A stretch of DNA of 64,000 nt from a virus, in the IMG/VR virus record IMGVR_UViG_3300021142_000013, positions 38,075 through 102,074 of that record; one strand, written 5' to 3'. The notes beneath the pieces were generated by a model. That model saw only the letters and a list, made by a program, of their open reading frames with translations, was not told the origin of the DNA and searched no databases. This document shows positions 14,038 to 59,683 of the stretch, piece after piece. The number at the start of each line of letters is the position of its first letter. Positions within the stretch are counted from its first letter, which is position 1. Both the position numbers and the translations under genes were made by a program.

Positions 14038-14038
14038 T

Positions 14039-37342: not shown

Positions 37343-37374
37343 CAAAATTACAATAAAAAAGGGAGAATAACAAA
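37343..37374 (-). promoter_or_regulatory. Bacteroidetes sigmaA-type promoter for recA
   Basis: Minus strand TTTG, 20 nt, TAATTTTG. Confidence 0.7.
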
Positions 37375-37744: not shown

Positions 37745-40030
37745 TTAAATTCTTACAATTTCACATGAATTTCCACTACATGCCATAGCACCCATTTCAT
37801 CCATATTTTTATATTCTGGTTTATTTAATATTTTTGTAAAATCAACTTCTTTAAATTCTCTATTAACTAGATTCCATTTGTGTCTAAGATGAACATCTTT
37901 TAAACAATAAATCATAAAATTAATATCTCCTTTAAAGTAGTTTTTAGCAAATTTCTTTGCTCTTTTGATCCAATCTTTTTTTATAAATACATCTGTCCTA
38001 TGTCCATGTATTTCACGATCTCTATGTAATATACATTCACAAGCTTCCCAAAGATTATCTTTAAAAGCATGTAATCCATCAACAATTAAACCTGATGCAA
38101 ATAAAGAACCTTCACCATATTTAATATATATTTCTTCAAAAGATAGAACAGAAGTATTAGGTGCTTGATTATAGTCTTTATCTCCAAATACAGACATGAA
38201 ACTAACAGCACTAAAACTATCTTGATTATCAAAAATATAATTAGTTATATCATTATAATTATCTATTATAATTGTATTTGATACATTATGTGAAGTAGAA
38301 GGAACAATACAATTTTCCTCATTTTTACCTTCTTTTATCCAAGAATTCATTATAAGTTTAATCTTTTTAAGATGTTCTACTCCTTGTAGATCTGACTTAT
38401 AAATAGTGCCTTTAGGATTTTCAATAGGAACATAAACAACATAATCTGTATTTCCCTCTGAATATACACTTTCTTCTATTAAATAAGGCATACTCTTTTG
38501 AATATATTTTGCTGTTTCAGTTTCCTTATTAAGTTGCATTACTCTAAAATAATTTTTAGAATGCTCAGGTGTAACTCCACTAGCACACATTAAAACAACA
38601 GGACCATTACCTCCTGGTTTTACAGTTGTTCCTCTCGCTGTTGAATTAATACCTAAAATATCTGCAACTTCTTTATTTGTATCTAATACTATTTTTGCTG
38701 CGTTTTTAAGAATTTCTTCATTGAATAACCATGGAGAATTAGTCCATCCTGCAATAGAAACACCTAAAAGAGCCTCTTTTTTAGTTATTATAATAGATTC
38801 CTCAAGACAATCTTCTAAATGATTGAAATTAGTATATCCTGCTTGTAAAGTTCCTGTTATAGCGGCGGCTCGACAAGCTTCGTAGAGGTCATTTGGATTT
38901 TTAAGAATAGCTCCATTTATTTCGTTTAAATTACAAGCTTGAACACCAGTAGTAACTCCTTCATCTAATATTGTAATATCAGATGACATTATTCTATTTA
39001 TAATATTTTTATTATCATAACCGAAACACAAAGGAGTGAATCCTATTTCAAAACAAGGATTATATATTTCAAATATATTATTTAGAAATACAAATCCGAT
39101 ATCAGAAGTTCCTTCATTTATTTTTAATAATTCTAAGAATTCTTCTTTAGTAAAACTTCCTTTAATAAGTCCGACTGAATTATTAGAACGTTCTCGTTGT
39201 CTATTTTCTTTTCTCCAATTACCTGATTTAGCAAAAATCATATCTTTATTTTCAGGAGATATTATAATTGAACAAGCACTTCTTCTAACACCTCCAGACA
39301 ACACCGCATCTGCTAAATGCATAAACACATCATATAATAGAATTGCTTTAAATTCTTTTGGAAAATCTTCTACATAAGAATTTAATAATTTCTCAATTTT
39401 TTCAAAAGCATTTCTGATTCCATCAGAACCTGGTGCTTTGAATCTTCTTCCTACTTTTGCTCCTTTTTCTCTTATTTGAGAGTAATCGAACTTAATTTCG
39501 TATCCTTGATATTCTTTAAATTTATCAGATACTCCTTCATATAAATATGAATTTATCAGAATATGTTCTGCTTCAGCCCACCCTTCAATACTATCTTTTA
39601 TAGTAAAACTTTTAATTCCTTTATTTCTTTTTACTACTGTAGGAATTCTTTCGATAAAAGGATTCATCATGTTAACGCCTACACCACAACCACACAATAA
39701 GAGATAAAAAGCATTTCCTAAAAAAGAAATCTTATCTGCATACATTGTGATACAATTATACATGCGAAATTCATGTTTAAATATATCGTTTCCTCTGAAT
39801 TGTAAATTTCTTTGAGAAGCTAGGAAAATCTTTTCTTTATACTTCTTTTTAGCAAAATTCACATAAGGTTCTAGTTTTTCAATTTTATCGGGATATTTGT
39901 AAGCATGAGTATCAAATACCTCGTCTACAGCTTCCTCCCATGTTTCATACCTATCTGCTAAATCGTTCCATCCTAAATAGTCAGAATATAATTTCAAATC
40001 TGACAAAAATTTCCGTCCTTTTTTATCCAT
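37745..40030 (-). CDS. nrdJ: Class II (AdoCbl-dependent, monomeric RTPR-type) ribonucleotide reductase
   Basis: RYETW, YNC, LLLCG.GVG, VLSGGVRRSA, R..SNNS, NPC.EI, CNL.EI, T.VKP.G, C-terminal CSGNSC; no nrdB adjacent. Confidence 0.85.
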   Translation of the reverse strand: MDKKGRKFLSDLKLYSDYLGWNDLADRYETWEEAVDEVFDTHAYKYPDKIEKLEPYVNFAKKKYKEKIFLASQRNLQFRGNDIFKHEFRMYNCITMYADKISFLGNAFYLLLCGCGVGVNMMNPFIERIPTVVKRNKGIKSFTIKDSIEGWAEAEHILINSYLYEGVSDKFKEYQGYEIKFDYSQIREKGAKVGRRFKAPGSDGIRNAFEKIEKLLNSYVEDFPKEFKAILLYDVFMHLADAVLSGGVRRSACSIIISPENKDMIFAKSGNWRKENRQRERSNNSVGLIKGSFTKEEFLELLKINEGTSDIGFVFLNNIFEIYNPCFEIGFTPLCFGYDNKNIINRIMSSDITILDEGVTTGVQACNLNEINGAILKNPNDLYEACRAAAITGTLQAGYTNFNHLEDCLEESIIITKKEALLGVSIAGWTNSPWLFNEEILKNAAKIVLDTNKEVADILGINSTARGTTVKPGGNGPVVLMCASGVTPEHSKNYFRVMQLNKETETAKYIQKSMPYLIEESVYSEGNTDYVVYVPIENPKGTIYKSDLQGVEHLKKIKLIMNSWIKEGKNEENCIVPSTSHNVSNTIIIDNYNDITNYIFDNQDSFSAVSFMSVFGDKDYNQAPNTSVLSFEEIYIKYGEGSLFASGLIVDGLHAFKDNLWEACECILHRDREIHGHRTDVFIKKDWIKRAKKFAKNYFKGDINFMIYCLKDVHLRHKWNLVNREFKEVDFTKILNKPEYKNMDEMGAMACSGNSCEIVRI

Positions 40031-44123: not shown

Positions 44124-44525
44124 CTATTTTTCTAATTCTAAATCGCGCCTGAAGAATCTAGAGAGCACGTTATCATTGTATGTATCTTTATTTAACACGT
44201 CATACTTAAATTGATAATAAACTTCAAAATATGTAAGTCCTTTTCTGGTTTTACACTTTTTTAAAATTTTCATTGAAAAGTTTTCTTTACCATATTTTTC
44301 AATATCTTCTTTTAATCTTTTGGAAGAACCCCAATAATCTTTCCATCCACTATCTACATACTCTATTTTATATTTTGGTTTTCTACCTTTTTTCGTGATT
44401 GCGTCTAATTCTTTTTTAGTTAATTTCTTTTTTATTCTATGCAGATACGCTTTTTTACCTATATATATCTGTTTAGTTAACTTATTAGTTATTAGATATA
44501 TATATCCATAGTATTTTTGTTCCAT
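44124..44525 (-). CDS. Free-standing short GIY-YIG endonuclease
   Basis: YGYIYLITN......YIGKK, W.DYWGSS, YND motif. Confidence 0.8.
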   Translation of the reverse strand: MEQKYYGYIYLITNKLTKQIYIGKKAYLHRIKKKLTKKELDAITKKGRKPKYKIEYVDSGWKDYWGSSKRLKEDIEKYGKENFSMKILKKCKTRKGLTYFEVYYQFKYDVLNKDTYNDNVLSRFFRRDLELEK

Positions 44526-44530
44526 AAATG

Positions 44531-44576
44531 TAAAGGTAAGAAATATTTAGCATAATACCAAATATTCTTACCTTCA
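44531..44576 (-). promoter_or_regulatory. Promoter (TTTG-20-TACCTTTA) inside an imperfect inverted repeat
   Basis: AAGGTAAGAAATATTT ... AAATATTCTTACCTT palindrome between the amidoligase and GIY-YIG genes. Confidence 0.5.
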
Positions 44577-44615
44577 TTTATGAATTAACAACCAATCTAT
44601 AGTACTAAATCCAAA

Positions 44616-46369
44616 CTAAAACAATCTTGTAACTCCTTTATAAGTAAAAGAGTACTTTTTATCTTTTGTGAGATCGTGATTACTTACATAATCTCCTTCT
44701 TTAAAATCTCTTGCAAATATTCTGCATTTTTCTTCATAGTATGCGATTAAATATTCACTTAAAAACGAAGCTGTCTTATCTCCTTTAAAGAATTCTCTAT
44801 AATGATTTAGGACTCCTGTAAATGTTATTTTTTCAGGAGAAGTTATTATTTTTTGTTGATTATATTCTGTATATTTAATAATAGCTAAACACATAAATAA
44901 CCAATTAATCATCTTTTGAGGATTTAAAGTAGCTGAAGATAACCTTGATTCAGCAGTACCTCTTTCAGAAAATATCATGTTCTGATAATTCCACCAATAA
45001 TCATTGTGTTAACATATAGGCTTTTTATCCTACATTTCTATATATTTCTATATAGTTCAGACTATATCTTCACCTAAATAGGTGTTGGATGCTCGTGGTA
45101 ATTTCATAACCGTTCTGGTCGTTTATTACTAGTCGTTGAACCTGCTATCTATTCCTAGATAGGTCGGCTGCTGATTGGCATAGATTTCTCCTTAGCGTCC
45201 CAGCAATTCTTCCAATTTATAGTCGGCAGTATTGGAGTTTACCGACTTTTTCTATTCCATTTTTCTCTGATAGGATGCTTTTTTCTTTGACGATTGTAAT
45301 TTATATCTGCAGGAGCACCGTCAGATAAAAACTTAAATATATCTTCATATACTTCATTGACATATCCTTTATATCCTTCTTTAGATTTATCCTGAAGAGG
45401 GTATATATGTAAGCGATCAAGTTTTTGACAATAATTCTTATGTTTAATACCGTCAGGATTTGTCTTATAATAAGGAAACATTTTAAATACATCATCTTGT
45501 ATCTGATGGCAAAGAATATAAAGAGCTACCATATAACCTCTGTCTAAAGGAATATTTCCAAAATGTATATGATAAGAACAATTAATGTCTACATTACATC
45601 TTTTAGATAATTCCTCTGCAATAGTTACAATGTTTTGCAAACATTTTACTCCTCCCATAGGTACTGTAACCCATTCTGCGCCTCCTATAGAACCATCTCT
45701 ACAGGATACTACTCCGTGACGATATTGAAAATTATTACTACAGTTTCCTGCAGAAGTTTCAATTTCAATACCTATTGTAGTATCTCCAAGAATTTTTCCG
45801 TAAGGAATTACTTCTCGACTAATAGATAAAGGATAATTCTTATATGTTTTTTTCTTTTCTGCAAATTCTTCTACATTATCTTCAATATTGTATCCCTTAT
45901 GTTTGAAGTCTTTTTCCGCACGAATTGATTGAAATTTTTTAATATCCGCTTCAGACCATTCATCTTTATCATACCAAACACAATTTGAAATTTCTTCAAT
46001 ATAATTGTTTTCCAGAAGAATTTCTTTATTTATAGCAGTAAAGTTACCAAATTTCTTACTACGTCCTGCTACATTATTATAAACATTTGGAGTAAAGAAT
46101 TCAAAGATAGGTGTTTTATCTTTGAATCCTATAACTCCTTTTATTAATTGAGGGTTGTCTTGAATAACTTTCCATTCACGTAATTCATAGTCAAAAGCTA
46201 TTTTTCCTGAACATTTACGATACCACTTTCCGTTTATTTCAAAACAATCTTTATCAATTACATGATATGCATCTAATATATGTTTACAATTTATACGATA
46301 TTCCTTTTCACCAGTAACTGTTTTTACTACTTTTAATTTCAAGTTAGGATTATCACTATATAAAATCAT
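44616..46369 (-). CDS. Amidoligase (glutamate-cysteine ligase/GS-fold), two exons 46369-45241 and 45001-44616, 504 aa spliced
   Basis: TIGIEIET, RDGSI...EWVT.P, CSYHIH, NYC; splicing restores ..RKSR|YYWWNYQNMIFSERGTAESR (RY..N...T.E.R motif). Confidence 0.85.
45002..45240 (-). ncRNA. Group I intron (IA-type, 239 nt, no ORF) in the amidoligase gene
   Basis: P1 AGTCGGT/GCCGACT with U-G at the splice site; P AATTGCTGGGA, Q AATCAGCAGC, R TTCAACGACTA, S AAGATATAGTCTG; terminal G; P10 CCAATA/TATTGG; removal restores the reading frame. Confidence 0.92.
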
Positions 46370-48510
46370 ACATTAACTGTTGTTTTTTTATTTAATTCTT
46401 CGATAAATTCTTTTAACGCGTCTTGATTTGCTTCAGAAATAGTTTCTAAACTCTTTTTGATATTATCTATTACTTTATACAAAGCATTTGCTACTTCTTG
46501 AGCTAAATCATTGTTTTCTAATCCTTGAAGATCATCTGCAACACTATTAATATCTTGTGTAAAAAGAACGGTATCTTCCATTAAAGCCTTAATTTCCATA
46601 ATTTGTTTTTCTTTTTTTTCAGTTAAATCTTCATGTTCAGTTAATGTTTTCTCTATTGTCTTTTCTTCTGTTTTAGCTCCTACTCTTATCCATTTAGCGA
46701 CATCTTCCAGAGAAGCATCTTTGTCAGATGAATTCTTAGAAATTTCAAAGAAATAATCTAAAGTTTCAAAGGTATCTCCTAATTGAGCACGAATTGAAAC
46801 TCCTGTAAGTACAGCTTTGTTGATAGAATTAAATAAAAATGCCTCTACTTCTTCTGTATCAGGATCTAATTCGCAAGTTCGTGTTAAATAATCTGCACAA
46901 TATTGTAAAAGTGCATTAAACTCATTTTTAGAAAATCCTCGTAAAGCAGTTTCAAATTTATCAAAAACAATATCAAAACCTATACCATCATCTTTAATAG
47001 ATGTTTTACAAGCAATATTACAAGAACCAACATTTTTTTGAATGTTAAAGGGAAGTTGCGATTGAAATGATTCATCTATATCCAAGGCTTTATCTCCACG
47101 AACGGAAGAAGTTATGCCTGTAAGATAACCATTACTTACAATATAAACCCGTGAACTGAATTTAAAATCAATATTCTTTTCATAAGGACGACCTGAAAGA
47201 TACCACATAAATCGTGTTTCAGGTGAAATTTCCAAAGATTCTGTAGGTAAATTTGTTACGGGATATATGGAATAATGGCTTATCAATACAGCAAAATTGG
47301 TTCTATTGGAAATCCAATGTCCTTTCGTTGCTTCTTTTGATAAGTATTGAAAATTATCCAAACTCTTAACCATAACTCCTGCGTAAAAGAAATATTGCTT
47401 TGCAGTAACATCTTTCATATCAGAAATTTCACCCCTATGTTTCAACCAGTAAGTGCCATTACAAAGGAGTCCTTTATAATAATATCTACCAAATCTAACA
47501 TATATACTATCTTTATCTGCTTTTTCAGGAATAGTTTCTTTCCATACCAGAGAAATCTTACTATTTTTCTCAAATACAGAAGCACTTTCAGAAGCGGATT
47601 TTATAATATTTTTTATAATATTATTGTTTATTCCCTGATTCTGGTAAGTAAATTCCAAATTAGCATCTTTTCTATTAATTTCCTTACGATATCCTGTGAT
47701 AACTCCATTAGTAACTCTAAATATCGTGTTGTATTCGAGAGTTTCAACTTTTTGGCGATTTTCGCGAATAGATTCTAAAGCAGATGCCATAGAACTAAAA
47801 TAGATACCTTCAGGCGTTTTCATATAGTGCATTGGTCTCTCCTCATAGAGTTCTCCTTTAGGAGTTTTACGCGTTGCACCATGATATAAATAAAGACTAT
47901 TAGGCTGTCCTTTTTTAGTCCAAACTAATGCTGCAGCACCCTTATACTTTTCAAGGATTTCCACGCCTACTTTGTCTATTAACATTCCTAAAGCTTTACT
48001 ATCTACATGTATTTTAATGTGATCTATATCATTTACTCTACATAATTCCCATATGTTTTCAATACGTCCGTTATGTACAATAATCATGTCATTTTTTTCA
48101 TCACCACTTACACTTTTGATGTAAAATGGATGATTATTTTCAACAGTCTGTGCTCCATGAGTAGCTTGCCTTGCGTGGCATATCATCAAATTACCTTTTG
48201 TTATATCTATTAAAGGTAATTCGTAATTTGCAATATAACTACTAAAGAGTCTAGTGTCTAATTTAACTTCTGTATCATTATGTCCTTTGTAAATACTCCC
48301 GTTTACAAAAAATCCACAACCATGTTCGCCTCTACTCTGATTATAAAGACCAAGAATCGCAATCTTCATTCTAATCATGTTTAATTGGACAGGTGTAGGA
48401 GCTTTTATTGCAGAAATACCCCAAATACCACAAAATGTCATACTATGATCTCGTTTAAATATAAACGAAAATAGTAGTTGAACTAATAAATAGATTGTTA
48501 TTATTGTCAT
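46366..48510 (-). CDS. Class II (Ntn) glutamine amidotransferase with long C-terminal extension
   Basis: CGIWG, N..RG.H.CG, CHARQAT.G....N.HPF, VHNG.I.N, VDS, ERPM. Confidence 0.85.
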   Translation of the reverse strand: MTIITIYLLVQLLFSFIFKRDHSMTFCGIWGISAIKAPTPVQLNMIRMKIAILGLYNQSRGEHGCGFFVNGSIYKGHNDTEVKLDTRLFSSYIANYELPLIDITKGNLMICHARQATHGAQTVENNHPFYIKSVSGDEKNDMIIVHNGRIENIWELCRVNDIDHIKIHVDSKALGMLIDKVGVEILEKYKGAAALVWTKKGQPNSLYLYHGATRKTPKGELYEERPMHYMKTPEGIYFSSMASALESIRENRQKVETLEYNTIFRVTNGVITGYRKEINRKDANLEFTYQNQGINNNIIKNIIKSASESASVFEKNSKISLVWKETIPEKADKDSIYVRFGRYYYKGLLCNGTYWLKHRGEISDMKDVTAKQYFFYAGVMVKSLDNFQYLSKEATKGHWISNRTNFAVLISHYSIYPVTNLPTESLEISPETRFMWYLSGRPYEKNIDFKFSSRVYIVSNGYLTGITSSVRGDKALDIDESFQSQLPFNIQKNVGSCNIACKTSIKDDGIGFDIVFDKFETALRGFSKNEFNALLQYCADYLTRTCELDPDTEEVEAFLFNSINKAVLTGVSIRAQLGDTFETLDYFFEISKNSSDKDASLEDVAKWIRVGAKTEEKTIEKTLTEHEDLTEKKEKQIMEIKALMEDTVLFTQDINSVADDLQGLENNDLAQEVANALYKVIDNIKKSLETISEANQDALKEFIEELNKKTTVNV

Positions 48511-48514
48511 TGTT

Positions 48515-49339
48515 TTAGTTTTTTTCTAAGAATTTTAGTTTAGCAATTTTTGGTACTTCTTCAATATATTTCTGTAAAGTGATAACTCCCATTGATGGAG
48601 CAGATGCGCTTTCTATAACAATCCACTCTGGATTTTCTCGTTTACGATTCTTTTTATCCTGAGCAGATTGTACTCGAACATCAAATGCAGCTATGTCAAG
48701 ACCTAAATGTTGAAGAGCATCTACACAATCTTTAACAATAGAATCCCAATTAACAGGCTTATTGAACTCCTCATTGTTTTCAAGAATCCATACACAATTA
48801 TCATCATGTCTTTGCCATTTGTTTTTTTCAGGAGCATCTCTTTTCAACATTTTTCTACAAGTATAGAAACATCCATTTTTAGTTACATGTAGACGATATT
48901 CTCTTGTATAAGAGTAATATTTTTCTAATATGTAATTGGAATTATTTTTCCCTTGTATAGTTATATTAAATTCTTCAAGATTATCACAGAGATAATTACC
49001 TGTACCTCTAGATCCTAATACATGTTTAATAACTATAGGAAAAGGTAACTCTTTTGTTGCGATTTCTTGTTTCGTTTCAGCATCAATGATAATCCCTTTA
49101 TCAAAATAAAACCATTTAGCTGTTTTGATATTCCCTTTATTGAAACATTCCTTCATCAAATGTTTATTTGATGAGTTTTTAACCCCTTCTACGCTATTTA
49201 TTTGTATATATCTAGGATCTACTATCTCTGTAGTGCTACCTAGCCTTAAAACGCTTCTAAATGGCAATAATGGTAGTAAATTTCTCAGTTCTTGATGGCT
49301 GGGATGCCTCGACCTCAATCTTGTTCTAAAGAGTTTCAT
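48515..49339 (-). CDS. ATP-grasp ligase (RimK/phiEco32-like)
   Basis: RSRHPSH, RLGSTT, NSSNK..MK..F, P.V.K...GSRG.G, E.Y....EYR.HV, GLD.AA.DV, IES.SAPS.G. Confidence 0.85.
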   Translation of the reverse strand: MKLFRTRLRSRHPSHQELRNLLPLLPFRSVLRLGSTTEIVDPRYIQINSVEGVKNSSNKHLMKECFNKGNIKTAKWFYFDKGIIIDAETKQEIATKELPFPIVIKHVLGSRGTGNYLCDNLEEFNITIQGKNNSNYILEKYYSYTREYRLHVTKNGCFYTCRKMLKRDAPEKNKWQRHDDNCVWILENNEEFNKPVNWDSIVKDCVDALQHLGLDIAAFDVRVQSAQDKKNRKRENPEWIVIESASAPSMGVITLQKYIEEVPKIAKLKFLEKN

Positions 49340-49940
49340 CTAATAGTTTATTTAATAAGTTTTGGAAATATTTAACAGTTTCATGATTCTCAGGCATATA
49401 TTCAGGATGAGGTTGTATACCTAATGCTTTTATTTTAGGATAATATACTACTTCGCACTCTAATGGCGGATTCATTTCTTCCTCATTACCGCCTTCATGA
49501 TAAGGAGAGATATCTTTTGTCCATCCAAGAATTTTATAATCTGTTTTAGGTAAATTAAACGGATATTGTGCCTGATGATGAGTAGATGTTACCATTAACT
49601 CCTTACCATCATACGTTTTCATTTTATGATTACCTGGATTATATTGATGTTGAACGAGTTTTCCTCCTGCAAGTATCGAAGAAATGAATTGTGATCCCCT
49701 ACATACACCGCATATGGGTATACCTAAATTAATTGCTTTTTCAGCTTCTTGTTTTTCTTCAACATCGCGCTGTTTATTATTTCCTGTACGAGGATGTTTT
49801 TTTTCACCATACATTGAAGGGCTTACGTCTTCGCCGCCTGTGAGAACTACAAGATTAGCTTTTTCCATTTTATTGGTTATTTCTCCTTGCATCCAGTTGG
49901 CATATCCTTTAGAGCCACCTATGACATAGATTTTTCGCAT
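49326..49940 (-). CDS. Class I glutamine amidotransferase / peptidase C26-like
   Basis: LTGGEDV.P..Y, RD..E, GVCRGSQ nucleophile elbow, STHHQ, QPHPE. Confidence 0.9.
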   Translation of the reverse strand: MRKIYVIGGSKGYANWMQGEITNKMEKANLVVLTGGEDVSPSMYGEKKHPRTGNNKQRDVEEKQEAEKAINLGIPICGVCRGSQFISSILAGGKLVQHQYNPGNHKMKTYDGKELMVTSTHHQAQYPFNLPKTDYKILGWTKDISPYHEGGNEEEMNPPLECEVVYYPKIKALGIQPHPEYMPENHETVKYFQNLLNKLLDETL

Positions 49941-50614
49941 TCTATTATTTTTAAGTAGTTATTTAATAATTCTTCTTTAGTCTTACTATCCTTTAGAGCT
50001 TTTTCTAGTTTTGTATTTGCAGGATAAGTTTCATACATATCTTTTAGCTTTACAATACCGAAGTTCTTTTTTAAATATGCATTCACTAAAGTACCCTCTG
50101 GTGTATCAGAATTCAAAATGTATTTTAAGTATTCTTCATGATTTACAAATCGTACTAATACATGCGCAGGACGAAAAGAATGCATCTGATCACATACATA
50201 TGTACATAAAACAAATATATTCCATAATTCAGATATCTCAACAACATCTTTTGAGAATTTTAAGAACGCTTTTACAATTAAATAGAAATCTCCCTCATAG
50301 ACATAACGAATACTATTAATAAGTATCTTACCTACTAAATAAGAGTTTTCACTAACAATTATATCCACGATCCATTTTTCTTTTGTATTTTCATATGTGA
50401 ATATGAAACCTAATTTTTTCAAAAGAGAAAAATATCTTATTACTTGATTTTCACTTAATCCGTCGTACCAATCTTTAACAATATATATTTTAATCGATTT
50501 AACTTTGGATAATTCACAATAAATGTGTGAAAAACAAGAACTTCTGTCAATTTTTACTTCCTTGTCTGTATTTGTTATATAATCGTAGGTTACTATTTGA
50601 TTACAATATTTCAT
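49919..50614 (-). CDS. Hypothetical protein, tandem paralog of 50601..51248
   Basis: Colinear similarity (VK.W...L.E......LKK..F.FTY.NT.E.W...NS.LV.KIL.N..R..Y...F..IVK.FLKF, LWNI). Confidence 0.75.
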   Translation of the reverse strand: MKYCNQIVTYDYITNTDKEVKIDRSSCFSHIYCELSKVKSIKIYIVKDWYDGLSENQVIRYFSLLKKLGFIFTYENTKEKWIVDIIVSENSYLVGKILINSIRYVYEGDFYLIVKAFLKFSKDVVEISELWNIFVLCTYVCDQMHSFRPAHVLVRFVNHEEYLKYILNSDTPEGTLVNAYLKKNFGIVKLKDMYETYPANTKLEKALKDSKTKEELLNNYLKIIECEKSMS

Positions 50615-51248
50615 TTAATAATTCTTTACAATTTTTAGAATTTTTTACAGCATCAATATACTTTTGTTTACAGTTATTGTATTTGTCTTGTCCAGGTAGT
50701 CCAAATTCATGTTCTATATAATGTCTAATGTGTTCGTTAGTACTTGCTTTTAAAATTTTTTCTTGAAATTCTTGCAATGTAACTAAACGTACTCCTATAT
50801 ATGGATTAAATGAATGATTTGAATTAGACCGTGTATCTACGTAAGTAGACAATAACAAGATATTCCATAAAGGTTGTTTCTGCTTGTTTTTTACAAATTT
50901 TAGAAATGTTTTAACAATATCTGGAAAATTTTCAGCATATAAAAAACGAAAACAATTCAATAGAATCTTATTAACCAACATACTATTCTTTTCAGGTTTT
51001 ATTTCAAATATCCACTCCTCTTCTGTATTCCGATATGTGAATTTGAATTTCATTTTTTTTAAATATCCTAAAAAAGATAATATTTCCTCTTCTGTTAGTG
51101 CATTACTCCACTTCTTCACAAAAAATACTTGAACCGTTTCTATATTATATAAGTTTCTATAAAAACGATTGTAACACGCATAATTTTCGCGTAATTGAAA
51201 ATTTTCATCTGCTTTATATTTTAAACGATATTCTACATCACAATGCAT
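50601..51248 (-). CDS. Hypothetical protein, tandem paralog of 49919..50614
   Basis: See the paralog. Confidence 0.75.
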   Translation of the reverse strand: MHCDVEYRLKYKADENFQLRENYACYNRFYRNLYNIETVQVFFVKKWSNALTEEEILSFLGYLKKMKFKFTYRNTEEEWIFEIKPEKNSMLVNKILLNCFRFLYAENFPDIVKTFLKFVKNKQKQPLWNILLLSTYVDTRSNSNHSFNPYIGVRLVTLQEFQEKILKASTNEHIRHYIEHEFGLPGQDKYNNCKQKYIDAVKNSKNCKELLNEIL

Positions 51249-52046
51249 TTATACTAAATTTATTTGAAAGTCTTTAATTAAATTCTCAGCTAATTCTCTA
51301 TTAGAATTATTTATTGTTTGTTGAATAATATCGCCCAATCCTTCTATTTCATTAATGCGATTATTGTTCACAAAATCAACAGCTTTTTTAGTATTTTTAA
51401 AAGTCCATGTTATCAATCTCTTATTGGAAGAAAAAAATGAAGATAAAGTTCTGTATTCAGCACCCCATTGAGTGTGGCGCATATTACCTGCACAACCATA
51501 TCCAACTTGTTTTCTTTCATTTTCTGGTTCAATGAGTATAGATGGTACTCCTAGAAATAAATCACATGCTTTTATTAATGCATAATTTGCCTCTTCAGAT
51601 GGATTATCATAGCCCATATGAATGTGATATCCACAAGCACGAAGATTATCTCCTGTTGGTTGAGGACGTATTTCTTCCAATGTCCAACAATTCCATGACG
51701 GGTCACAACCGAAATGCTTTGCATTATCTGTTTGCAGATATTTTTCATCTAATCTTGCAGAAGGCATTGCTATCGCTTCTAGATTAGCAGGAATAGTTGC
51801 GTTAATATAATTAATTAATTTAGCAACATTCTTATAGAATTCATAAGCAGTCTTTACAGGTGGAATATTTCCTTCTGCAGATACATTATCCAAAGAAGTT
51901 GCGAAAAACTTATTTCCTGCTACAAATTTAAAAGGTTCGTCCTTTGTTCCTCTTATTATTCCTTCTGCGGATACTACTTCTTTAGTTTTTTTATCTCTTA
52001 GGAAATACTCAATATCGCTACCTAGCGTTAAATTATTTATTTTCAT
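51249..52046 (-). CDS. COOH-NH2 ligase type 2 (phiEco32-like)
   Basis: TLGSD.E.F, G.I.GTK..P, DNV.AE.NI.P, FGCDP..N, R..G.HIH.G, DL.LGVPS, YG.AG..R...G.EYRTLS.F. Confidence 0.9.
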   Translation of the reverse strand: MKINNLTLGSDIEYFLRDKKTKEVVSAEGIIRGTKDEPFKFVAGNKFFATSLDNVSAEGNIPPVKTAYEFYKNVAKLINYINATIPANLEAIAMPSARLDEKYLQTDNAKHFGCDPSWNCWTLEEIRPQPTGDNLRACGYHIHMGYDNPSEEANYALIKACDLFLGVPSILIEPENERKQVGYGCAGNMRHTQWGAEYRTLSSFFSSNKRLITWTFKNTKKAVDFVNNNRINEIEGLGDIIQQTINNSNRELAENLIKDFQINLV

Positions 52047-52049
52047 ATA

Positions 52050-52490
52050 TTAATGTTTATTATTCCAATTACCAGATTTAATTATATTTTTGCGTTCAAA
52101 AGCATCATCATTATGCATTACATACATGTATCCTTTACCATACGGAGTATCTACTGCAATTATATCATACCAATTATCACTATCTCCAGGAATCCCTGTA
52201 CATCCTTCTAAGCGATGTACTCTATTTAAAACAGTGTTACTTGTTATTTTAAATACATCACATTCAATAGAACCTTTACCATTATCTATAACAATAGGAA
52301 AATGATCATTTTTTCCATACATTGTATAATTTGCATCAGTTCTAAATGTGCCTAAATATTCTGATTTGTGTTCTAGAAACGCTTTGTAATTATTTCTTCC
52401 TAAGCGCAAAGTTCCATAAACACATATGAGAACTTCTGGATTTTCTTCTGTAATTTCAATTCTTTTTGTTTGTTTTAGTACTGCTTCCAT
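52050..52490 (-). CDS. Gamma-glutamylcyclotransferase (AIG2/YtfP-like)
   Basis: VYGTLR.G..N, FP, RLEG, I.SG.W. Confidence 0.85.
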   Translation of the reverse strand: MEAVLKQTKRIEITEENPEVLICVYGTLRLGRNNYKAFLEHKSEYLGTFRTDANYTMYGKNDHFPIVIDNGKGSIECDVFKITSNTVLNRVHRLEGCTGIPGDSDNWYDIIAVDTPYGKGYMYVMHNDDAFERKNIIKSGNWNNKH

Positions 52491-52648: not shown

Positions 52649-52918
52649 TTATAGTTGTTCAGGGGTTACTAATAGCATGTCGTATCCATAATTTACTAAT
52701 CGCGAATTAATATTGTCACATAATTCTTCTACAGTGAATTCCTCACATAGAAATTCATAAGAATTCGCTTCATCTAGAAAATTGTAATCTTCTAATTCTC
52801 TATTTTTAGCAAAACTCTTAAAAATATCTATAACTTTTGAATACAATTTCTTTTCGCTACTAGAAACATAACTTTCTTGTACAATTCCATTTCTTAGAAC
52901 TAAGATTACTTTCTTCAT
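52649..52918 (-). CDS. Hypothetical protein
   Basis: 89-aa ORF coupled to the primase. Confidence 0.6.
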   Translation of the reverse strand: MKKVILVLRNGIVQESYVSSSEKKLYSKVIDIFKSFAKNRELEDYNFLDEANSYEFLCEEFTVEELCDNINSRLVNYGYDMLLVTPEQL

Positions 52919-53925
52919 AATAGATTTTTACTAATGAATAATTCTTTTAACATATCTAATCCATAATATTTTACATAATCACTTGCATCTTTAATTTTGA
53001 ATCGTTCGTACTCCTTGTATGGTATATTGAAGTAGCCAAAACCTTTATTATTCAATTTAATAGATGAATTTACACCTGTAACATCATTATCAAAAAAAAT
53101 GACTATCTTCTCAAAAGTATTCAGTAGTCTTTGTTGTAATTCCTCTGGAAAAGCTCCTTCTGATTCATTTTGCGTTGCAAGAACATTTTTGAAAAGTTTA
53201 CGGCAAATTATTAAATCTTTTTTACTTTTCGTAATAATACAAATCTTTTCATTGGAATTCCAATCAAAGTTAGATAATCCAAATGGAACTGTTAAAGGTA
53301 AAGAACTAACCCATTTCATTTTATCATCATGTGGACTATATATTTTTACTCCTACTTTATCCTCGTAGGGTTCAGGATATGCGAAACGCAATATGTTTTT
53401 AGTCCAAATTTCTTTTTTATTGATAAAAAGTTTCTTTATTGGATAGACATTTTCTCTTTCTAATTCTTCTTGTTTTATTTCATATTGTCGCCAAAAAGAT
53501 AGATTTTCTTTATTCCATTTATCTTTAACAAATTGAATGATTGTAGATTCTTTAATTTCTTTATCCAACGAATTGCTTTCTATAAATACCTTTTCAGGAA
53601 CCCTATTAGTAGTTCTATCTATTAATCCAAAGTCTTGTGCTATTCTTTCTAATGCTTGATAAAAATTACAATTATATAGAGTTTTAACAAAATCAAAGCA
53701 ATCCCATGTCTGATTATTACGAAAATCAGTATATATAATTTTGCCATTTTTACCAATAAAGAAAGAACATGAAGGATTTTTATCTTTAGAAAATTTTGAA
53801 CAATACGCACGACCTATCTTGAAGGAACCATGATAATACATAAATATTGCTTCTTCAGTTATCCTGCTAAGAATCCATTCTTTAGATAATAAAATTTTTA
53901 CAGTTGCTTTGTTAAAATCATACAT
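52915..53925 (-). CDS. DNA primase (DnaG-like TOPRIM)
   Basis: D.NPSCSF, Y.DF, D.FDFV, KIY.P, IITKS.KD, QNE, FFDND.TG, KDASD. Confidence 0.85.
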   Translation of the reverse strand: MYDFNKATVKILLSKEWILSRITEEAIFMYYHGSFKIGRAYCSKFSKDKNPSCSFFIGKNGKIIYTDFRNNQTWDCFDFVKTLYNCNFYQALERIAQDFGLIDRTTNRVPEKVFIESNSLDKEIKESTIIQFVKDKWNKENLSFWRQYEIKQEELERENVYPIKKLFINKKEIWTKNILRFAYPEPYEDKVGVKIYSPHDDKMKWVSSLPLTVPFGLSNFDWNSNEKICIITKSKKDLIICRKLFKNVLATQNESEGAFPEELQQRLLNTFEKIVIFFDNDVTGVNSSIKLNNKGFGYFNIPYKEYERFKIKDASDYVKYYGLDMLKELFISKNLL

Positions 53926-57684: not shown

Positions 57685-59253
57685 TTAACATAGTTTTTCT
57701 ATATTCCTTCGTACTTGTGATAAAGTAGTTTGATTGTAAAACGCACCATTTTCATATATAACTTGCAATATTCCTTTATCTTCTTCTTCAGGAGTACATT
57801 GAGTATATACATTGAAATTATGATCCACAGCAACCATTCCTTTCAAAGATTTCTTAGTACCATCATCCGTTATAGGATCTTTATATATGTCATACGCAAT
57901 TCGTTCTACTTCATATTCATAATCTACAGGAATTCCTTGTGCATTTTTTACAACTCTTGCAAAACCACCTTCTTTTTTTTGAAGGATTTCAAACCAAGAG
58001 CCCTTAACAGCAAATCCAAAAGTATCGCGAGTATTCATTTGATAAGTAAAAGAACCTACACCGAGAACAATATTAGTACAAGCAAATCCTTTAGCTTCTA
58101 AACGTCTATAAATCTCCATTTGTCTATCTAGAGTAATAGAATCACCATAAATAGCTCCTATATGAGAATCAAGTACTTTATAACCTTGTTTGTTAACTGT
58201 ACCACCAAACATATCCCAAAGTAATTCAATTACACCCTTTTCTTTAGAATTTGATTTGATTTTAGAATGTTCATTTTTCCATTCTTCTTTATTATCCCAT
58301 ATAACTTCACCACAAATTATATCTACAGGATCACCAGAATCAGGACGTATTACTAATTTACCATCACGAGCCATTATGGCTTCTTTATTAGCTGGTAAAT
58401 ATTCGGTAATGAGTTTCCATAAATCAAATGTATCTGAAACAATTGATAATATACCTATTGGAAATTCTTTTAACCAGTCAGCAATCATTTGTTGTTCACC
58501 TACAGTAAATATTTTTGTTGTGCTTACTGAGTGTTCAGACGCATTGACAGAATTGATAGAAACCTCATTCTCAGGCTCGTTATAGAAGTATCTAGCTCCT
58601 GGTATAACTATAAGTGTATCAGAACCTCTAAACGAAGATGCGTGACCTAATCCACTAGCTAGCATATCAAAAGGAGATAATCCTCTAGCACTAAAATCAT
58701 GAGCTAAATATGGAAGAAGTCCAATATTCTTCTCATCTGTTTTATTTATCCATTCTTTTAGATTTCTACGATATTGTAAAGCAATAGTTGCAGAAGTAGA
58801 AGATTTCCAAGATAATGCAGAAATAATTGTTTCTAGGTATAATGTTAACCAAGCATATCCATCTATTGTATTAATAAATGTCATATGTGGAACATTTGCA
58901 GAAGTTTCTATACCTTCTGGTAAAGCTTTAATTTTAATAGGTAAATAACCTAATTTATGGAGTTTGATAAAATGATCTCCTTTAAATTCCATATCAAGAT
59001 ACATAGACATATCTCTAATAAAACTAGCTGCTTCTTCTTGTGTTTTATCAAAGAAATTCTCTTTAAATTCGTCATGTAACCATTTAATCATAAGCTGATG
59101 ACCAAATGAAAGAATTTTAGTTATTCCTTTAGGTGCATGTTTTACACTTCTCGGTATCAATGTTCCATATAAACGAACTGTTCCAGGAGCTAACATTTTT
59201 TTGTGTCCCACTTTATATCCATCTGAATAGTAGAGACTTAATGGTTTAAACAT
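57685..59253 (-). CDS. Nicotinamide phosphoribosyltransferase-like protein (Namat of NARP1)
   Basis: DGYK.GH, HDFSARG, GSDT, SV.ASEHSV, SIVSDT.D, VIRPDSGDP, IYGDSIT, GVGS.TYQ..TRDT.G.A.K, KDP.TD.G.KKS.KG. Confidence 0.9.
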   Translation of the reverse strand: MFKPLSLYYSDGYKVGHKKMLAPGTVRLYGTLIPRSVKHAPKGITKILSFGHQLMIKWLHDEFKENFFDKTQEEAASFIRDMSMYLDMEFKGDHFIKLHKLGYLPIKIKALPEGIETSANVPHMTFINTIDGYAWLTLYLETIISALSWKSSTSATIALQYRRNLKEWINKTDEKNIGLLPYLAHDFSARGLSPFDMLASGLGHASSFRGSDTLIVIPGARYFYNEPENEVSINSVNASEHSVSTTKIFTVGEQQMIADWLKEFPIGILSIVSDTFDLWKLITEYLPANKEAIMARDGKLVIRPDSGDPVDIICGEVIWDNKEEWKNEHSKIKSNSKEKGVIELLWDMFGGTVNKQGYKVLDSHIGAIYGDSITLDRQMEIYRRLEAKGFACTNIVLGVGSFTYQMNTRDTFGFAVKGSWFEILQKKEGGFARVVKNAQGIPVDYEYEVERIAYDIYKDPITDDGTKKSLKGMVAVDHNFNVYTQCTPEEEDKGILQVIYENGAFYNQTTLSQVRRNIEKLC

Positions 59254-59263
59254 ATTAATAATT

Positions 59264-59683
59264 TTAACCTATTTCATCTAGGTGTGTTTGTGAACGAATA
59301 AATGCTCTTTGTCGATACATCGCTTCTTGTAAAGTATCTAATGCTTGATCTAGACCTGCACGATCATCTAGAAATATATTAGCATATATTTTATTTTGAT
59401 TACCATATGGTAAATCGATAGGATTTTGATTAATTGTATCTATATGTAAATCTTTAGAATCACAATATTTACGAATTTCTTCATAACGATTTTGTTTACA
59501 AGCAGTAAAAATTACAATATATGCACCAACTCTTCTTGCTTCTTTTAATAGTTCAATAACTTTATCACATTTTTGTTGATTTGTTAACTTCCAAGGACAA
59601 ATTGTATCATCAAAATCAACTGCGACGATTATCTTACCATGAAGATTCCATTCTTCAACTAATCTTTTTATATAATCGTTCAT
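59264..59683 (-). CDS. Small HAD-superfamily phosphatase-like protein
   Basis: IVAVDFDDT, IFTA, KIYANIFLDDRAG. Confidence 0.75.
   Translation of the reverse strand: MNDYIKRLVEEWNLHGKIIVAVDFDDTICPWKLTNQQKCDKVIELLKEARRVGAYIVIFTACKQNRYEEIRKYCDSKDLHIDTINQNPIDLPYGNQNKIYANIFLDDRAGLDQALDTLQEAMYRQRAFIRSQTHLDEIG

What the first reader, a model, noticed from the sequence alone, without database searches (positions are those of the whole stretch)
44616..52490. Eight-gene glutamyl/peptide-ligase operon: GGCT, COOH-NH2 ligase, two paralogous unknowns, GATase I, ATP-grasp, GATase II, amidoligase
Seen: three amide-forming enzymes (two GS/GCS-fold, one ATP-grasp), two amidotransferases of different classes and a gamma-glutamylcyclotransferase in one coupled string of about 7.9 kb. 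Known: a related cluster was predicted computationally in phiEco32-like phages, with a proposed role in peptide or cell-wall modification; to my knowledge its product is not established. Inference: the phage makes a gamma-glutamyl/amidated peptide, tags proteins, or remodels peptidoglycan precursors (superinfection exclusion or anti-defence), with GGCT/C26 as the removing activities.
Basis: partly seen in the sequence, partly recalled or inferred. Interest (0 to 1): 0.75.

Follow-up and report, generated by a model that had tools for sequence, protein, structure and literature searches.

The report
Known phage amidoligase cassette, crAss-like copy
This crAss-like gut phage carries an intact copy of the "phiEco32-type" cassette of amide-bond-making and glutamyl-cleaving enzymes, which is already known from hundreds of phages but whose product nobody has identified, so the gene calls are right but the system is not new.

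Summary
Window 44616-52490 (minus strand) carries eight tightly coupled genes:
- a GGACT/AIG2 cyclotransferase;
- a COOH-NH2 ligase type 2 (PF14395);
- two paralogous unknowns (38% identity);
- a class-I GATase/Peptidase C26;
- an ATP-grasp ligase;
- a 714-aa class-II (Ntn) GATase;
- an Amidoligase_2 gene split by a 239-nt group I intron (45002-45240).

The window comes from a 102-kb crAss-like phage contig.

The cassette is the published phiEco32/RIO-1/LUZ24-type "amidoligase / putative peptidoglycan-modification cassette" (Iyer 2009; Hardies 2013). It is already annotated in crAss-like phage cr108_1. This scan had noted it on at least 82 other genomes. I found no paper that identifies its product.

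Additions from this work:
- The two unknowns belong to an unnamed ~230-aa family with invariant Cys, Arg and His. Its AF2 model is confident but has no clear structural neighbour. Every member I found lies in or beside the cassette.
- One related locus encodes a natural GGACT-COOH-NH2-ligase fusion.
- The class-II GATase lies next to Amidoligase_2 in 40 of the 41 related loci.
- Many class-II GATase homologs carry a hydrophobic leader before the catalytic Cys.
- The same intron site is occupied in related phages.

Most likely chemistry: ATP-dependent amide assembly, with a gamma-glutamyl group added and later removed, plus glutamine-dependent amidation. The target is unresolved.

The parts
52050..52490 (-). 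GGACT/AIG2-like gamma-glutamyl(amine) cyclotransferase, 146 aa. The YGTL motif and the HRLEG glutamate are present.
   Evidence: PF06094, 51.4 bits; phrog_2520, E = 9e-16; sequence read.
51249..52046 (-). COOH-NH2 ligase type 2 (phiEco32-like), 265 aa.
   Evidence: PF14395, 42.9 bits; phrog_3815, E = 1e-53 over the full length. The family-invariant residues D11, E13, E58, H141, E197 and R199 are present.
50601..51248 (-). Unknown A, 215 aa. Member of an unnamed ~230-aa family with invariant C25, R101 and H145 and near-invariant E105.
   Evidence: No Pfam, PHROG or NCBIfam hit. 78 cluster representatives. Alignment A2. AF2 pLDDT 90.6. No clear fold match.
49919..50614 (-). Unknown B, 231 aa; tandem paralog of unknown A.
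   Evidence: 38% identity, E = 1e-38. Only one copy was detected in the close relatives L006 and L007; two copies are present in cr108_1.
49326..49940 (-). Class-I glutamine amidotransferase / Peptidase C26, 204 aa. The GVCRG nucleophile motif and the HPE motif are present.
   Evidence: PF07722, 63.5 bits; PF00117, 32.4 bits; phrog_7218, E = 9e-41; sequence read.
48515..49339 (-). ATP-grasp ligase (RimK/Ddl-like), 274 aa.
   Evidence: PF02222, 23.3 bits and PF08443, 19.8 bits, both just under their cut-offs. phrog_2599, E = 2.5e-23. Several ATP-grasp NCBIfams. 41% identical to the annotated ATP-grasp protein of cr108_1.
46366..48510 (-). Class-II (Ntn) glutamine amidotransferase, 714 aa. Residues 1-26: hydrophobic leader. 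Cys27: predicted nucleophile. Residues 27-286: glutaminase domain. Residues 319-478: beta-rich domain of unknown fold. Residues 509-711: helical domain.
   Evidence: PF13522, PF13230 and PF13537. AF2 model, pLDDT 78.8. VIA Z = 22.6 to PurF, 22.0 to GlmS, 19.6 to AsnB and 19.5 to EgtC over residues 27-281. Foldseek matches only the glutaminase domain. The leader occurs in 13 of the 22 aligned sequences.
45241..46369 (-). Amidoligase_2 exon 1 (codons 1-376 plus the first base of codon 377).
   Evidence: 113 homologs, most about 503 aa with PF12224. The invariant E202, E204, D225 and H267/H269 are present.
45002..45240 (-). Group I intron, 239 nt, without an ORF.
   Evidence: RF00028, 79.7 bits, E = 2e-20. 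P1 AGUCGGU/GCCGACU with a U-G pair at the 5' splice site, and an omega-G at 45002. The spliced frame is open and matches its homologs.
44616..45001 (-). Amidoligase_2 exon 2, including the stop codon at 44616-44618. The spliced product is 504 aa.
   Evidence: 40% identity over residues 13-504 to the 496-aa intronless homolog of Leptolyngbya phage Lbo-JY46.
44518..44590 (-). Strong hairpin after the last cassette gene. Its 3' arm covers the ATG of the next gene.
   Evidence: -30.8 kcal/mol, z = -5.6, and 0 of 200 shuffles fold as well.
44124..44525 (-). Free-standing GIY-YIG (SegE-like) homing endonuclease gene, just downstream of the intron-containing gene.
   Evidence: PF19835, 81.8 bits.
52915..53925 (-). 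Primase-like gene heading the same co-directional string. A terminator-like hairpin lies upstream at 53972-53951.
   Evidence: phrog_12622, E = 5e-40; terminator-like site. Homologs lie upstream of the cassette in most related loci.

Best explanation
This is the crAss-like-phage version of the known phiEco32/RIO-1/LUZ24-type amidoligase cassette, encoded in the same gene string as the replication genes.

Shown:
- Three ATP-dependent amide-forming ligases are present: COOH-NH2 ligase-2, Amidoligase_2 and an ATP-grasp enzyme.
- Two Cys-nucleophile glutaminase-type proteins are present, one class I/C26 and one class II/Ntn.
- A gamma-glutamyl cyclotransferase is present.
- Catalytic motifs in all of these are intact.
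- The last gene needs a group I intron removed.

Inferred:
- The enzymes act in sequence on one carboxylate- or amine-bearing small molecule or peptide.
- COOH-NH2 ligase-2 attaches a gamma-glutamyl (or similar acyl) group through an acyl-phosphate. The adjacent (elsewhere fused) GGACT later removes it as 5-oxoproline. This would make it a transient protecting or activating group, as with BtrJ/BtrG in butirosin synthesis.
- The class-II GATase either supplies glutamine-derived ammonia to its neighbour Amidoligase_2, turning a carboxylate into a carboxamide, or acts as an EgtC-like gamma-glutamyl amidase.
- The ATP-grasp enzyme adds one more residue.
- The ~230-aa Cys/Arg/His family is a lineage-specific accessory enzyme or specificity subunit.

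The acceptor is unknown. Among the candidates, a cell-envelope (peptidoglycan stem-peptide) precursor is the one I rate most likely, at about one in three.
For: - Family hits and intact motifs.
- Literature: the cassette is described as a conserved seven-gene 'peptidoglycan modification cassette' in RIO-1, phiEco32, 7-11, PA11, tf, LUZ24, PaP3 and CW02 (PMC5498523). It is attributed to Iyer 2009 in PMC10580990.
- Gene sets: the same enzyme families are present in cr108_1, Leptolyngbya phage Lbo-JY46 and PaP3, and most of them in Slicky01.
- Spread: 217 phage records encode the COOH-NH2 ligase.
- Gene order across the 41 related loci: the class-II GATase is adjacent to Amidoligase_2 everywhere except Slicky01, and GGACT abuts the COOH-NH2 ligase in several loci.
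- L026:2827-4308 is a single 494-aa ORF with both GGACT (56 bits) and COOH-NH2_lig (38.6 bits).
- The glutaminase domain matches PurF, GlmS and AsnB, and EgtC almost as well, with Z = 19.5-22.6.
- A primase-like gene lies upstream and a PD-(D/E)XK nuclease gene lies beyond the GIY-YIG gene downstream.
Against: - No substrate, product or phenotype is known for any member. All step assignments beyond 'amide ligase', 'glutaminase-type hydrolase' and 'cyclotransferase' are inference from families and gene order.
- The C26 and Ntn proteins could each be an ammonia donor or a gamma-glutamyl amidase, and I could not tell which.
- The middle and C-terminal domains of the 714-aa protein and the ~230-aa family have no assigned fold or function.
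- The ATP-grasp Pfam scores are below the curated cut-offs.
Confidence: 0.8

Rival explanations
1. Cell-envelope target (the published hypothesis). The cassette amidates or extends peptidoglycan stem-peptide precursors (D-iGlu or mDAP carboxylates; gamma-glutamyl linkages). This would change cross-linking or lysin sensitivity and exclude superinfecting phages. It is a specific sub-case of the best explanation.
For: - The idea was proposed by Iyer 2009 and Hardies 2013, as quoted in PMC5498523 and PMC10580990.
- From established knowledge, the two known peptidoglycan carboxylate amidations (MurT/GatD and AsnB/LtsA-type) are both glutamine-dependent, which parallels the two ligase/GATase pairs here.
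- The ten commonest host genera of phages carrying the COOH-NH2 ligase are all diderm bacteria.
- 13 of the 22 aligned class-II GATase sequences carry a hydrophobic N-terminal helix, which might place the enzyme at the membrane.
Against: - No Mur-ligase, transpeptidase or lipid II-binding domain is present, and no experimental muropeptide data exist.
- The hydrophobic leader must be cut off to free the Ntn cysteine, so it may be only a propeptide.
- Amidoligase and GATase genes are also reported in viruses assigned to Poseidoniales archaea, which lack peptidoglycan (PMC11706807), although that host assignment is itself predicted.
Confidence: 0.3
2. Protein tagging or modification. The ligases add glutamate or another amino acid to side chains or termini of a host or phage protein (RimK-, tubulin-ligase- or Pup-like), and GGACT, C26 and the Ntn protein act as erasers.
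For: - The ATP-grasp protein is closest to the RimK-type PHROG.
- From established knowledge, GGACT acts on epsilon-(gamma-glutamyl)-lysine.
- Aravind-lab papers predict peptide-tagging roles for linked ligases.
- Weak structural echoes of unknown A to Dop (Z = 4.6) and to phosphagen-kinase-like folds.
Against: - No candidate tag or target gene is conserved in the cassette. The 52-aa ORF upstream is only marginally conserved.
- The structural echoes are below the noise level the tool itself states.
Confidence: 0.15
3. DNA or nucleotide hypermodification. The ligases and amidotransferases decorate a modified base in phage DNA, as suggested for amidoligase/GATase genes that co-occur with thymidine-hypermodification genes.
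For: - Lee et al. report amidoligase and amidotransferase Pfam domains co-associated with 5-HMUDK/aGPT-Pplase clusters in viral contigs (PMC8989533).
- The cassette sits among replication and nucleotide-metabolism genes.
Against: - The 102-kb genome (88% complete) has no thymidylate-synthase-like hydroxymethylase (PF00303) and no PurZ (PF00709).
- None of the genes I scanned near the cassette matched a base-modification family. I did not search the genome for 5-HMUDK, aGPT-Pplase, TET/JBP or DpdA.
- To my knowledge, carriers such as phiEco32 and LUZ24 are not known to have hypermodified DNA.
Confidence: 0.06
4. General nitrogen or glutamate auxiliary metabolism, or support of NAD+ reconstitution (for example amidation of a deamido intermediate), working with the NARP1-like genes 5-8 kb upstream.
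For: - A nitrogen-metabolism AMG role was proposed for Phage-ZRK32 (PMC10945688).
- Adps-like and Namat-like genes lie near the cassette in this window and in Lbo-JY46, Slicky01 and L021, with an Adps-like hit also in L006 and L025.
Against: - Most carriers examined (PaP3, cr108_1 and most of the 37 viral loci) have the cassette with no detected NARP1 genes.
- The NARP1 preprint I searched does not mention these families.
- Six dedicated enzymes would be excessive for bulk glutamine/glutamate turnover.
Confidence: 0.07

Closest known systems
phiEco32 / RIO-1 / LUZ24-PaP3-type phage amidoligase cassette (Iyer et al. 2009, Mol Biosyst; Hardies et al. 2013; Pfam PF14395 'Phage phiEco32-like COOH.NH2 ligase-type 2')
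   Same: - The six enzyme families are the same: GGACT, COOH-NH2 ligase-2, class-I GATase, ATP-grasp, class-II GATase and Amidoligase_2.
- The cassette is one co-directional block next to replication genes.
- PaP3 orf42-orf50 contains all six families.
   Different: - The host phage is a crAss-like (Crassvirales-related) phage of about 102 kb, not a 45-77-kb podophage.
- The accessory proteins differ. The ~230-aa Cys/Arg/His family shows no detectable similarity to PaP3 orf49 or orf50.
- The class-II GATase is 714 aa, with two extra domains and a hydrophobic leader; the PaP3 protein is 517 aa.
- The amidoligase is about 504 aa (398 aa in PaP3) and is intron-split.
Cassette of uncultured crAss-like phage cr108_1 (MT774385, Steigviridae), genes QOR59006-QOR59012
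   Same: - It is the closest annotated crAss-like phage carrying the cassette.
- It has the ATP-grasp (41% identity), class-I GATase (38%), COOH-NH2 ligase (39%), class-II GATase and a 487-aa amidoligase (29%) after the primase gene.
- It also has two paralogous members of the unknown family.
   Different: - The gene order is different.
- tblastn found no GGACT in the stretch fetched.
- The class-II GATase is shorter (493 aa).
- There is no intron.
Leptolyngbya phage Lbo-JY46 (PP438436) cluster
   Same: - It gives the best match of any cultured phage: COOH-NH2 ligase 47%, amidoligase 40% over the full length.
- The order is the same: GGCT, ligase, ..., ATP-grasp, a 730-aa class-II GATase, a 496-aa amidoligase.
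- The same NARP1-like neighbours are present (Namat-like 63% identical).
   Different: - It is a cyanophage.
- A second class-I GATase occupies the position of the unknown family.
- The ATP-grasp protein is 536 aa.
- There is no intron.
Gamma-glutamyl 'protect and remove' logic of butirosin biosynthesis (BtrJ ATP-grasp / BtrG gamma-glutamyl cyclotransferase), and the Puu pathway (PuuA GS-like ligase / PuuD C26 hydrolase)
   Same: An ATP-dependent gamma-glutamyl ligase is paired with a GGACT-type or C26-type remover. This analogy comes from established knowledge and was not tested here.
   Different: No sequence-level orthology was shown. There is no carrier protein, decarboxylase or oxidase gene here, and the substrates are unknown.

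Membership tests
phiEco32-type phage amidoligase cassette | COOH-NH2 ligase type 2 (PF14395) present | tested here: met
   42.9 bits against a cut-off of 25; phrog_3815, E = 1e-53.
phiEco32-type phage amidoligase cassette | Second GS-like ligase, Amidoligase_2 (PF12224) | tested here: met
   Neither exon gave a Pfam hit on its own. However, most of the 113 homologs (34-57% identical, about 503 aa) carry PF12224, and the invariant acidic and His residues are present.
phiEco32-type phage amidoligase cassette | Class-II (Ntn) glutamine amidotransferase linked to the amidoligase | tested here: met
   PF13522, PF13230 and PF13537. Z = 22.6 to PurF and 22.0 to GlmS. Adjacent to the amidoligase here and in 40 of the 41 related loci.
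phiEco32-type phage amidoligase cassette | ATP-grasp ligase | tested here: met
   Pfam scores are just under the cut-offs (23.3 against 27; 19.8 against 21). phrog_2599, E = 2.5e-23. 11 ATP-grasp NCBIfams.
phiEco32-type phage amidoligase cassette | GGACT/AIG2 gamma-glutamyl cyclotransferase | tested here: met
   PF06094, 51.4 bits. The YGTL motif and the catalytic-position Glu are present.
phiEco32-type phage amidoligase cassette | Class-I GATase / C26 | tested here: met
   PF07722, 63.5 bits. The Cys and the His-Pro-Glu motif are present.
phiEco32-type phage amidoligase cassette | Located in the replication/early-middle gene block of a tailed phage | tested here: met
   A primase-like gene lies upstream; the GIY-YIG gene and then a PD-(D/E)XK nuclease gene lie downstream; RecA, RNR and DnaB-like genes are on the same strand. 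Expression timing was not measured.
phiEco32-type phage amidoligase cassette | Biochemical product or target | not testable with these tools
   No member has a determined product in the literature I searched.
Group I intron (RF00028) | Covariance-model score above the gathering threshold, with P1 U-G at the 5' splice site, an omega-G, and restoration of the reading frame | tested here: met
   79.7 bits against a threshold of 50. P1 and the omega-G were read from the sequence. The spliced ORF is open and collinear with intronless homologs. Splicing in vivo was not tested.
Glutamine amidotransferase (ammonia-channelling) versus gamma-glutamyl amidase, for the Ntn and C26 proteins | A partner synthase domain of known type with an ammonia channel | tested here: inconclusive
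   The domains fused to the Ntn domain match nothing known. EgtC, an amidase, scores nearly as well as PurF and GlmS (Z = 19.5 against 22).

The most novel reading that the evidence does not exclude
The cassette is not a peptidoglycan modifier. Instead it would build a new small molecule or modification used in host takeover or counter-defence. The newly delineated ~230-aa Cys/Arg/His family (duplicated here and in cr108_1) would be its specificity-determining enzyme. The membrane-type leader on the Ntn amidotransferase would be a zymogen control. The cassette would be functionally tied to the NARP1-like NAD+ reconstitution genes found beside it in several unrelated phage lineages.
Probability: 0.1. 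Interest if true: 0.8.

Novelty: new member of a known kind. Interest (0 to 1): 0.38.

Why it matters
The cassette is one of the most widespread multi-enzyme modules in phages that still lacks a known product. Here 217 phage records carry the COOH-NH2 ligase, and this scan has noted the cassette in at least 82 other genomes. Working out its chemistry would explain a large investment of coding capacity in phages of Pseudomonas, enterobacteria, marine bacteria, cyanobacteria and gut Bacteroidota.

This copy does not open the question. It adds usable constraints:
- a natural GGACT-ligase fusion;
- a near-constant GATase-II/Amidoligase_2 pairing;
- a new accessory family with a confident model;
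- a likely propeptide on the Ntn enzyme.

It also shows that the module reaches crAss-like gut phages.

Tried and rejected
- ESM Atlas look-ups for unknown A and for the C-terminal 425 residues of the 714-aa protein gave only sub-threshold hits.
- A word-index homolog search for unknown A found only the protein itself. The exhaustive profile search was needed to find relatives.
- No Pfam family matched any of the 54 aligned members of the unknown family, the two window paralogs included.
- PDB sequence searches, with single sequences and with profiles, found nothing for the COOH-NH2 ligase, the amidoligase or the unknown family.
- Foldseek on the unknown A model found nothing at E <= 0.001.
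- VIA-wide on unknown A gave at best Z = 7.5, to a pterin-dehydratase-like alpha/beta sandwich over residues 1-105. Hits to McsB/phosphagen kinases and to Dop were Z = 6.1 or lower. By the tool's own calibration these are not decisive, so I do not claim a GS-like fold.
- hhalign of the unknown family against the amidoligase family and against PaP3 orf49 and orf50 found no relation. PaP3 orf49 and orf50 are not paralogs by BLASTP.
- Complex prediction for COOH-NH2 ligase plus unknown A returned no verdict (score 0.00). That is neither support for binding nor evidence against it.
Whole-model searches were dominated by the Ntn domain and by helical-bundle noise.
- A whole-window Rfam search at gathering threshold missed the intron. 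Only the local search found it. The same happened with the related loci.
- The sigma-70 promoter scan showed no enrichment over shuffles.
I therefore have no read-level evidence of splicing or expression.
- Iyer et al. 2009 (PMC3268129) is not held in the library. Its content is cited only through papers that quote it.

Full report
**Where the window comes from.** The window is bases 38075-102074 of a 102,074-bp IMG/VR viral contig, estimated 88% complete. It is AT-rich (about 28% GC) and has two divergent strand blocks. The best annotated relative of the region is the uncultured crAss-like phage cr108_1 (Crassvirales, Steigviridae). I found no tRNA genes, and at gathering threshold no Rfam hits.

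**Checking the observation.** Eight ORFs lie head to tail on the minus strand from 52490 down to 44616. They are separated by gaps of 0-4 nt or overlap by 4-22 nt. In transcription order, Pfam, PHROG and NCBIfam scans give:
- GGACT/AIG2 cyclotransferase, 146 aa: PF06094, 51.4 bits.
- COOH-NH2 ligase type 2, 265 aa: PF14395, 42.9 bits; phrog_3815, E = 1e-53, full length.
- Two proteins with no family hit, 215 and 231 aa.
- Class-I GATase/Peptidase C26, 204 aa: 63.5 bits.
- ATP-grasp ligase, 274 aa: Pfam just below cut-off, phrog_2599 E = 2.5e-23, many ATP-grasp NCBIfams.
- A 714-aa protein with an N-terminal class-II GATase domain.
- A 376-aa ORF with no family hit, followed after 260 nt by a 120-aa ORF.

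The two unknowns are paralogs (38% identity, E = 1e-38). The expected catalytic motifs are visible in every enzyme:
- GGACT: YGTL and a Glu in HRLEG.
- COOH-NH2 ligase: D11/E13, E58, H141/H143, E197/R199.
- Class-I GATase: GVCRG and HPE.
- Ntn protein: Cys27-Gly-Ile.
- Amidoligase: ExE, DGS and HxH.

**The split last gene.** A local Rfam search finds a group I intron at 45038-45278 (RF00028, 79.7 bits, E = 2e-20). I read the splice sites from the sequence. P1 pairs AGUCGGU with GCCGACU, with a U-G pair at the 5' splice site after position 45241. The intron ends in ...AAUG at 45002. It is therefore 45240-45002, 239 nt, with no ORF.

Joining the exons gives an open 504-aa frame. Its junction, KWNRKSR-Y-YWWNY, is collinear with intronless homologs; the Lbo-JY46 protein reads KWNRPSRYYWVNF there. 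Exon 1 has 113 homologs. Most are about 503 aa and carry PF12224 (Amidoligase_2). About a dozen are 376-385 aa, as expected if the same interruption cut their gene calls short.

In related viral contigs the same site (after residue 376) is interrupted in two loci. L007 has a 918-nt insert with an RF00028-like hit of 43 bits and a 271-aa internal ORF. L028 has an insert of about 890 nt. A second site near residue 400 is interrupted in L024 and L036. An earlier first-reader note on this window gives the same intron coordinates.

**Operon ends.** Downstream of the stop codon lies a strong hairpin (44518-44590; -30.8 kcal/mol, z = -5.6). Its 3' arm covers the start codon of a free-standing GIY-YIG (SegE-like) endonuclease gene at 44124-44525.

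Upstream, the coupled string continues through 52-aa and 89-aa ORFs to a primase-like gene at 52915-53925 (phrog_12622). A terminator-like hairpin with a T-run precedes that gene at 53972-53951. The transcription unit therefore probably runs from about 53.9 kb to 44.6 kb. This boundary is inferred; the promoter scan was uninformative.

**What is already known.** The literature describes exactly this gene set. PMC5498523 calls it a conserved seven-gene "peptidoglycan modification cassette": a gamma-glutamyl amidoligase, a second amidoligase, an ATP-grasp enzyme, a gamma-glutamyl cyclotransferase and a glutamine amidotransferase. It lists the cassette in RIO-1-like phages, phiEco32, 7-11, PA11, tf, MR299-2, LUZ24, PaP3 and CW02, citing Iyer et al. 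and Hardies et al. 2013. PMC10580990 and PMC11706807 repeat the superinfection-exclusion idea for phiEco32 and stress that the function is unexplored. Other proposals are nitrogen metabolism (PMC10945688) and involvement in thymidine hypermodification clusters (PMC8989533).

My full-text searches found no experimental identification of a product. The primary paper, Iyer 2009, is not in the library. This scan had already logged the cassette 95 times, in at least 82 genomes, with the same verdict.

**Comparative anatomy.** tblastn of the COOH-NH2 ligase hits 217 phage records. The ten commonest host genera (Pseudomonas, Vibrio, Aeromonas, Proteus, Salmonella and others) are all diderm bacteria. 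I compared the cassette with four annotated phages and with 37 IMG/VR loci recovered using an amidoligase profile.
- The class-II GATase is adjacent to Amidoligase_2 everywhere except in Slicky01.
- The GGACT gene usually lies just upstream of the COOH-NH2 ligase. It abuts the ligase in L003, L007, L013, L019, L022, L038 and in this window.
- In L026 the two are one 494-aa ORF with both Pfam domains above their cut-offs. This Rosetta-stone fusion ties a gamma-glutamyl-type ligation to a gamma-glutamyl-removing cyclisation.
- The ATP-grasp and class-I GATase genes are frequent but move around within the cassette.
- A primase-like gene lies upstream in most crAss-like loci.

**The two unknowns.** The word-index search found no relatives. 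An exhaustive profile search found 78 cluster representatives at E <= 1e-3, mostly 220-260 aa. None of the 54 aligned members, the two window paralogs included, matches a Pfam family. The alignment has invariant C25, R101 and H145 and near-invariant E105.

With that alignment AlphaFold2 gives a confident model (pLDDT 90.6, pTM 0.89). It has a five-stranded alpha/beta N-terminal half and a helical C-terminal half. Foldseek finds nothing in the PDB. VIA-wide gives at best Z = 7.5, for a generic alpha/beta sandwich over residues 1-105, which is within the tool's stated noise.

An HMM of the family hits ORFs in 11 of the related loci, always inside or next to the cassette. Among them are both "hypothetical" proteins of cr108_1, which are themselves paralogs (E = 4e-11). 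The close relatives L006 and L007 have one detected copy, so this phage carries a tandem duplication.

I conclude that this is an unnamed, cassette-specific family, probably enzymatic or metal-binding given the conserved Cys, His and Glu. Its role is unknown.

**The 714-aa protein.** With 21 homologs in the alignment, AlphaFold2 (pLDDT 78.8) resolves three domains: an Ntn glutaminase domain (residues 27-286), a beta-rich domain (319-478) and a helical domain (509-711). The first domain matches PurF (Z = 22.6), GlmS (22.0), AsnB (19.6) and the gamma-glutamyl amidase EgtC (19.5). Structure therefore cannot decide between an ammonia donor and a gamma-glutamyl hydrolase. The other two domains match nothing informative.

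Thirteen of the 22 aligned sequences, the window protein among them, have a 24-39-residue hydrophobic helix followed by basic residues directly before the catalytic Cys. The other nine start Met-Cys. An Ntn nucleophile must be N-terminal, so this leader would have to be cleaved off. That makes it a propeptide, possibly a transient membrane tether. This is inferred, not shown.

**Mechanism.** Shown: the families, the intact motifs, the gene coupling, the fusion and the adjacency. Inferred: the proteins act in sequence on one substrate. I infer two modules:
- COOH-NH2 ligase-2 with GGACT (and perhaps C26) adds and later removes a gamma-glutamyl-type group. This parallels BtrJ/BtrG and PuuA/PuuD, an analogy from established knowledge.
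- The class-II GATase with Amidoligase_2 performs either a glutamine-dependent carboxylate amidation or a ligation followed by an amidase step.

The ATP-grasp enzyme would add a further residue.

The target is open. I give the published envelope hypothesis about 0.3. It gains some support from the parallel with the two glutamine-dependent peptidoglycan amidations and from the diderm host range. I give protein tagging about 0.15. I give DNA modification about 0.06, because the genome has no hydroxymethylase-type thymidylate synthase homolog and no PurZ. I give general nitrogen or NAD-linked metabolism about 0.07.

**Comparison and novelty.** Every defining enzyme of the phiEco32-type cassette is present, so this is a member of that kind. 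It differs in four ways:
- It sits in a crAss-like genome.
- Its accessory family differs from those of PaP3.
- Its class-II GATase and amidoligase are longer.
- Its amidoligase gene carries an intron.

The module is already annotated in cr108_1. I rate this a new member of a known kind, and the interest is moderate. It does not raise a new open problem, but it adds constraints to an old one.

**Limits.** The complex prediction gave no verdict.

Noticed in passing
window 57685-60528 (minus strand): This looks like a NARP1-like NAD+ reconstitution operon. It has an Adps-like Prs homolog (59680-60528, phrog_619, E = 3e-56) and a Namat/NAMPT-like gene (57685-59253, phrog_448, E = 3e-148; 63% identical to the Leptolyngbya phage 'PncB'). 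Between them sits a 139-aa HAD-type protein with a DxDxT motif (59264-59683, phrog_1238). The published extended pathway, NARP1-AP, has a macro-domain ADPR-1P phosphatase in that position (bioRxiv 10.64898/2026.01.28.702374). A HAD-fold gene there could be an analogous phosphatase of a different fold. The same three-gene order occurs in L021.
   Followed up: partly
window 60540-61052 (minus strand): A second GGACT/AIG2-like cyclotransferase (170 aa; PF06094, 39.4 bits) lies just upstream of the NARP1-like genes. A homolog (37% identity) sits at the matching edge of the Leptolyngbya phage locus (L003:39-440).
   Followed up: no
window 33967-34815 (minus strand): This protein joins a MazZ-like dATP/dGTP diphosphohydrolase N-terminal domain (PF18909, 101 bits) to a weak, sub-cut-off match to NT5C-type 5'-nucleotidase at its C-terminus (23.1 bits against a cut-off of 24.8). 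No PurZ (PF00709) is found in the 102-kb genome, so this is not a complete 2-aminoadenine (Z-genome) pathway. Its role in dNTP pool editing is open.
   Followed up: partly
window 44124-44590 (minus strand): A free-standing GIY-YIG (SegE-like) endonuclease gene lies about 90 nt after the intron-split amidoligase gene. Its start codon is buried in the 3' arm of a very stable hairpin (-30.8 kcal/mol, z = -5.6). The arrangement resembles an ORF-less intron working with a neighbouring homing endonuclease, and hairpin-controlled translation of T4 intron or seg endonucleases.
   Followed up: partly
L007:11129-12046, L028:4176-5068, L024:11279-12182, L036:4628-5531: Related phages have inserts of about 0.9 kb in the amidoligase gene, either at the same site as this window's intron (after residue 376) or at a second site near residue 400. 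The L007 insert has a group-I-like Rfam hit (43 bits) and a 271-aa ORF. The conserved KWNR.SRYYW-coding stretch looks like a recurrent homing site.
   Followed up: partly
L026:2827-4308: A natural fusion of GGACT and COOH-NH2 ligase type 2 in one 494-aa ORF of a related viral contig (IMGVR_UViG_3300014059_000065).
   Followed up: yes
L006:3086-4366: A 426-aa ORF with no Pfam hit is inserted between the GGACT and COOH-NH2 ligase genes of the closest viral relative. It is absent from this window.
   Followed up: no
window 34751-35776 (minus strand): A second GIY-YIG endonuclease with a NUMOD1 domain (341 aa) lies in the replication block, near the RecA gene (36339-37373) and a ribonucleotide-reductase-like gene (37745-40030, phrog_367). 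The phage carries several mobile endonuclease genes.
   Followed up: no
window 961-12648 (plus strand): A 3895-aa ORF. Earlier first-reader notes on this genome call it the virion RNA polymerase gene. The same notes report a separate glycosyltransferase / M20-M28 hydrolase / PurD-like ATP-grasp cassette with an intein at 12648-16692. That would be a second set of amide-bond enzymes in the same phage. I did not examine it here.
   Followed up: no
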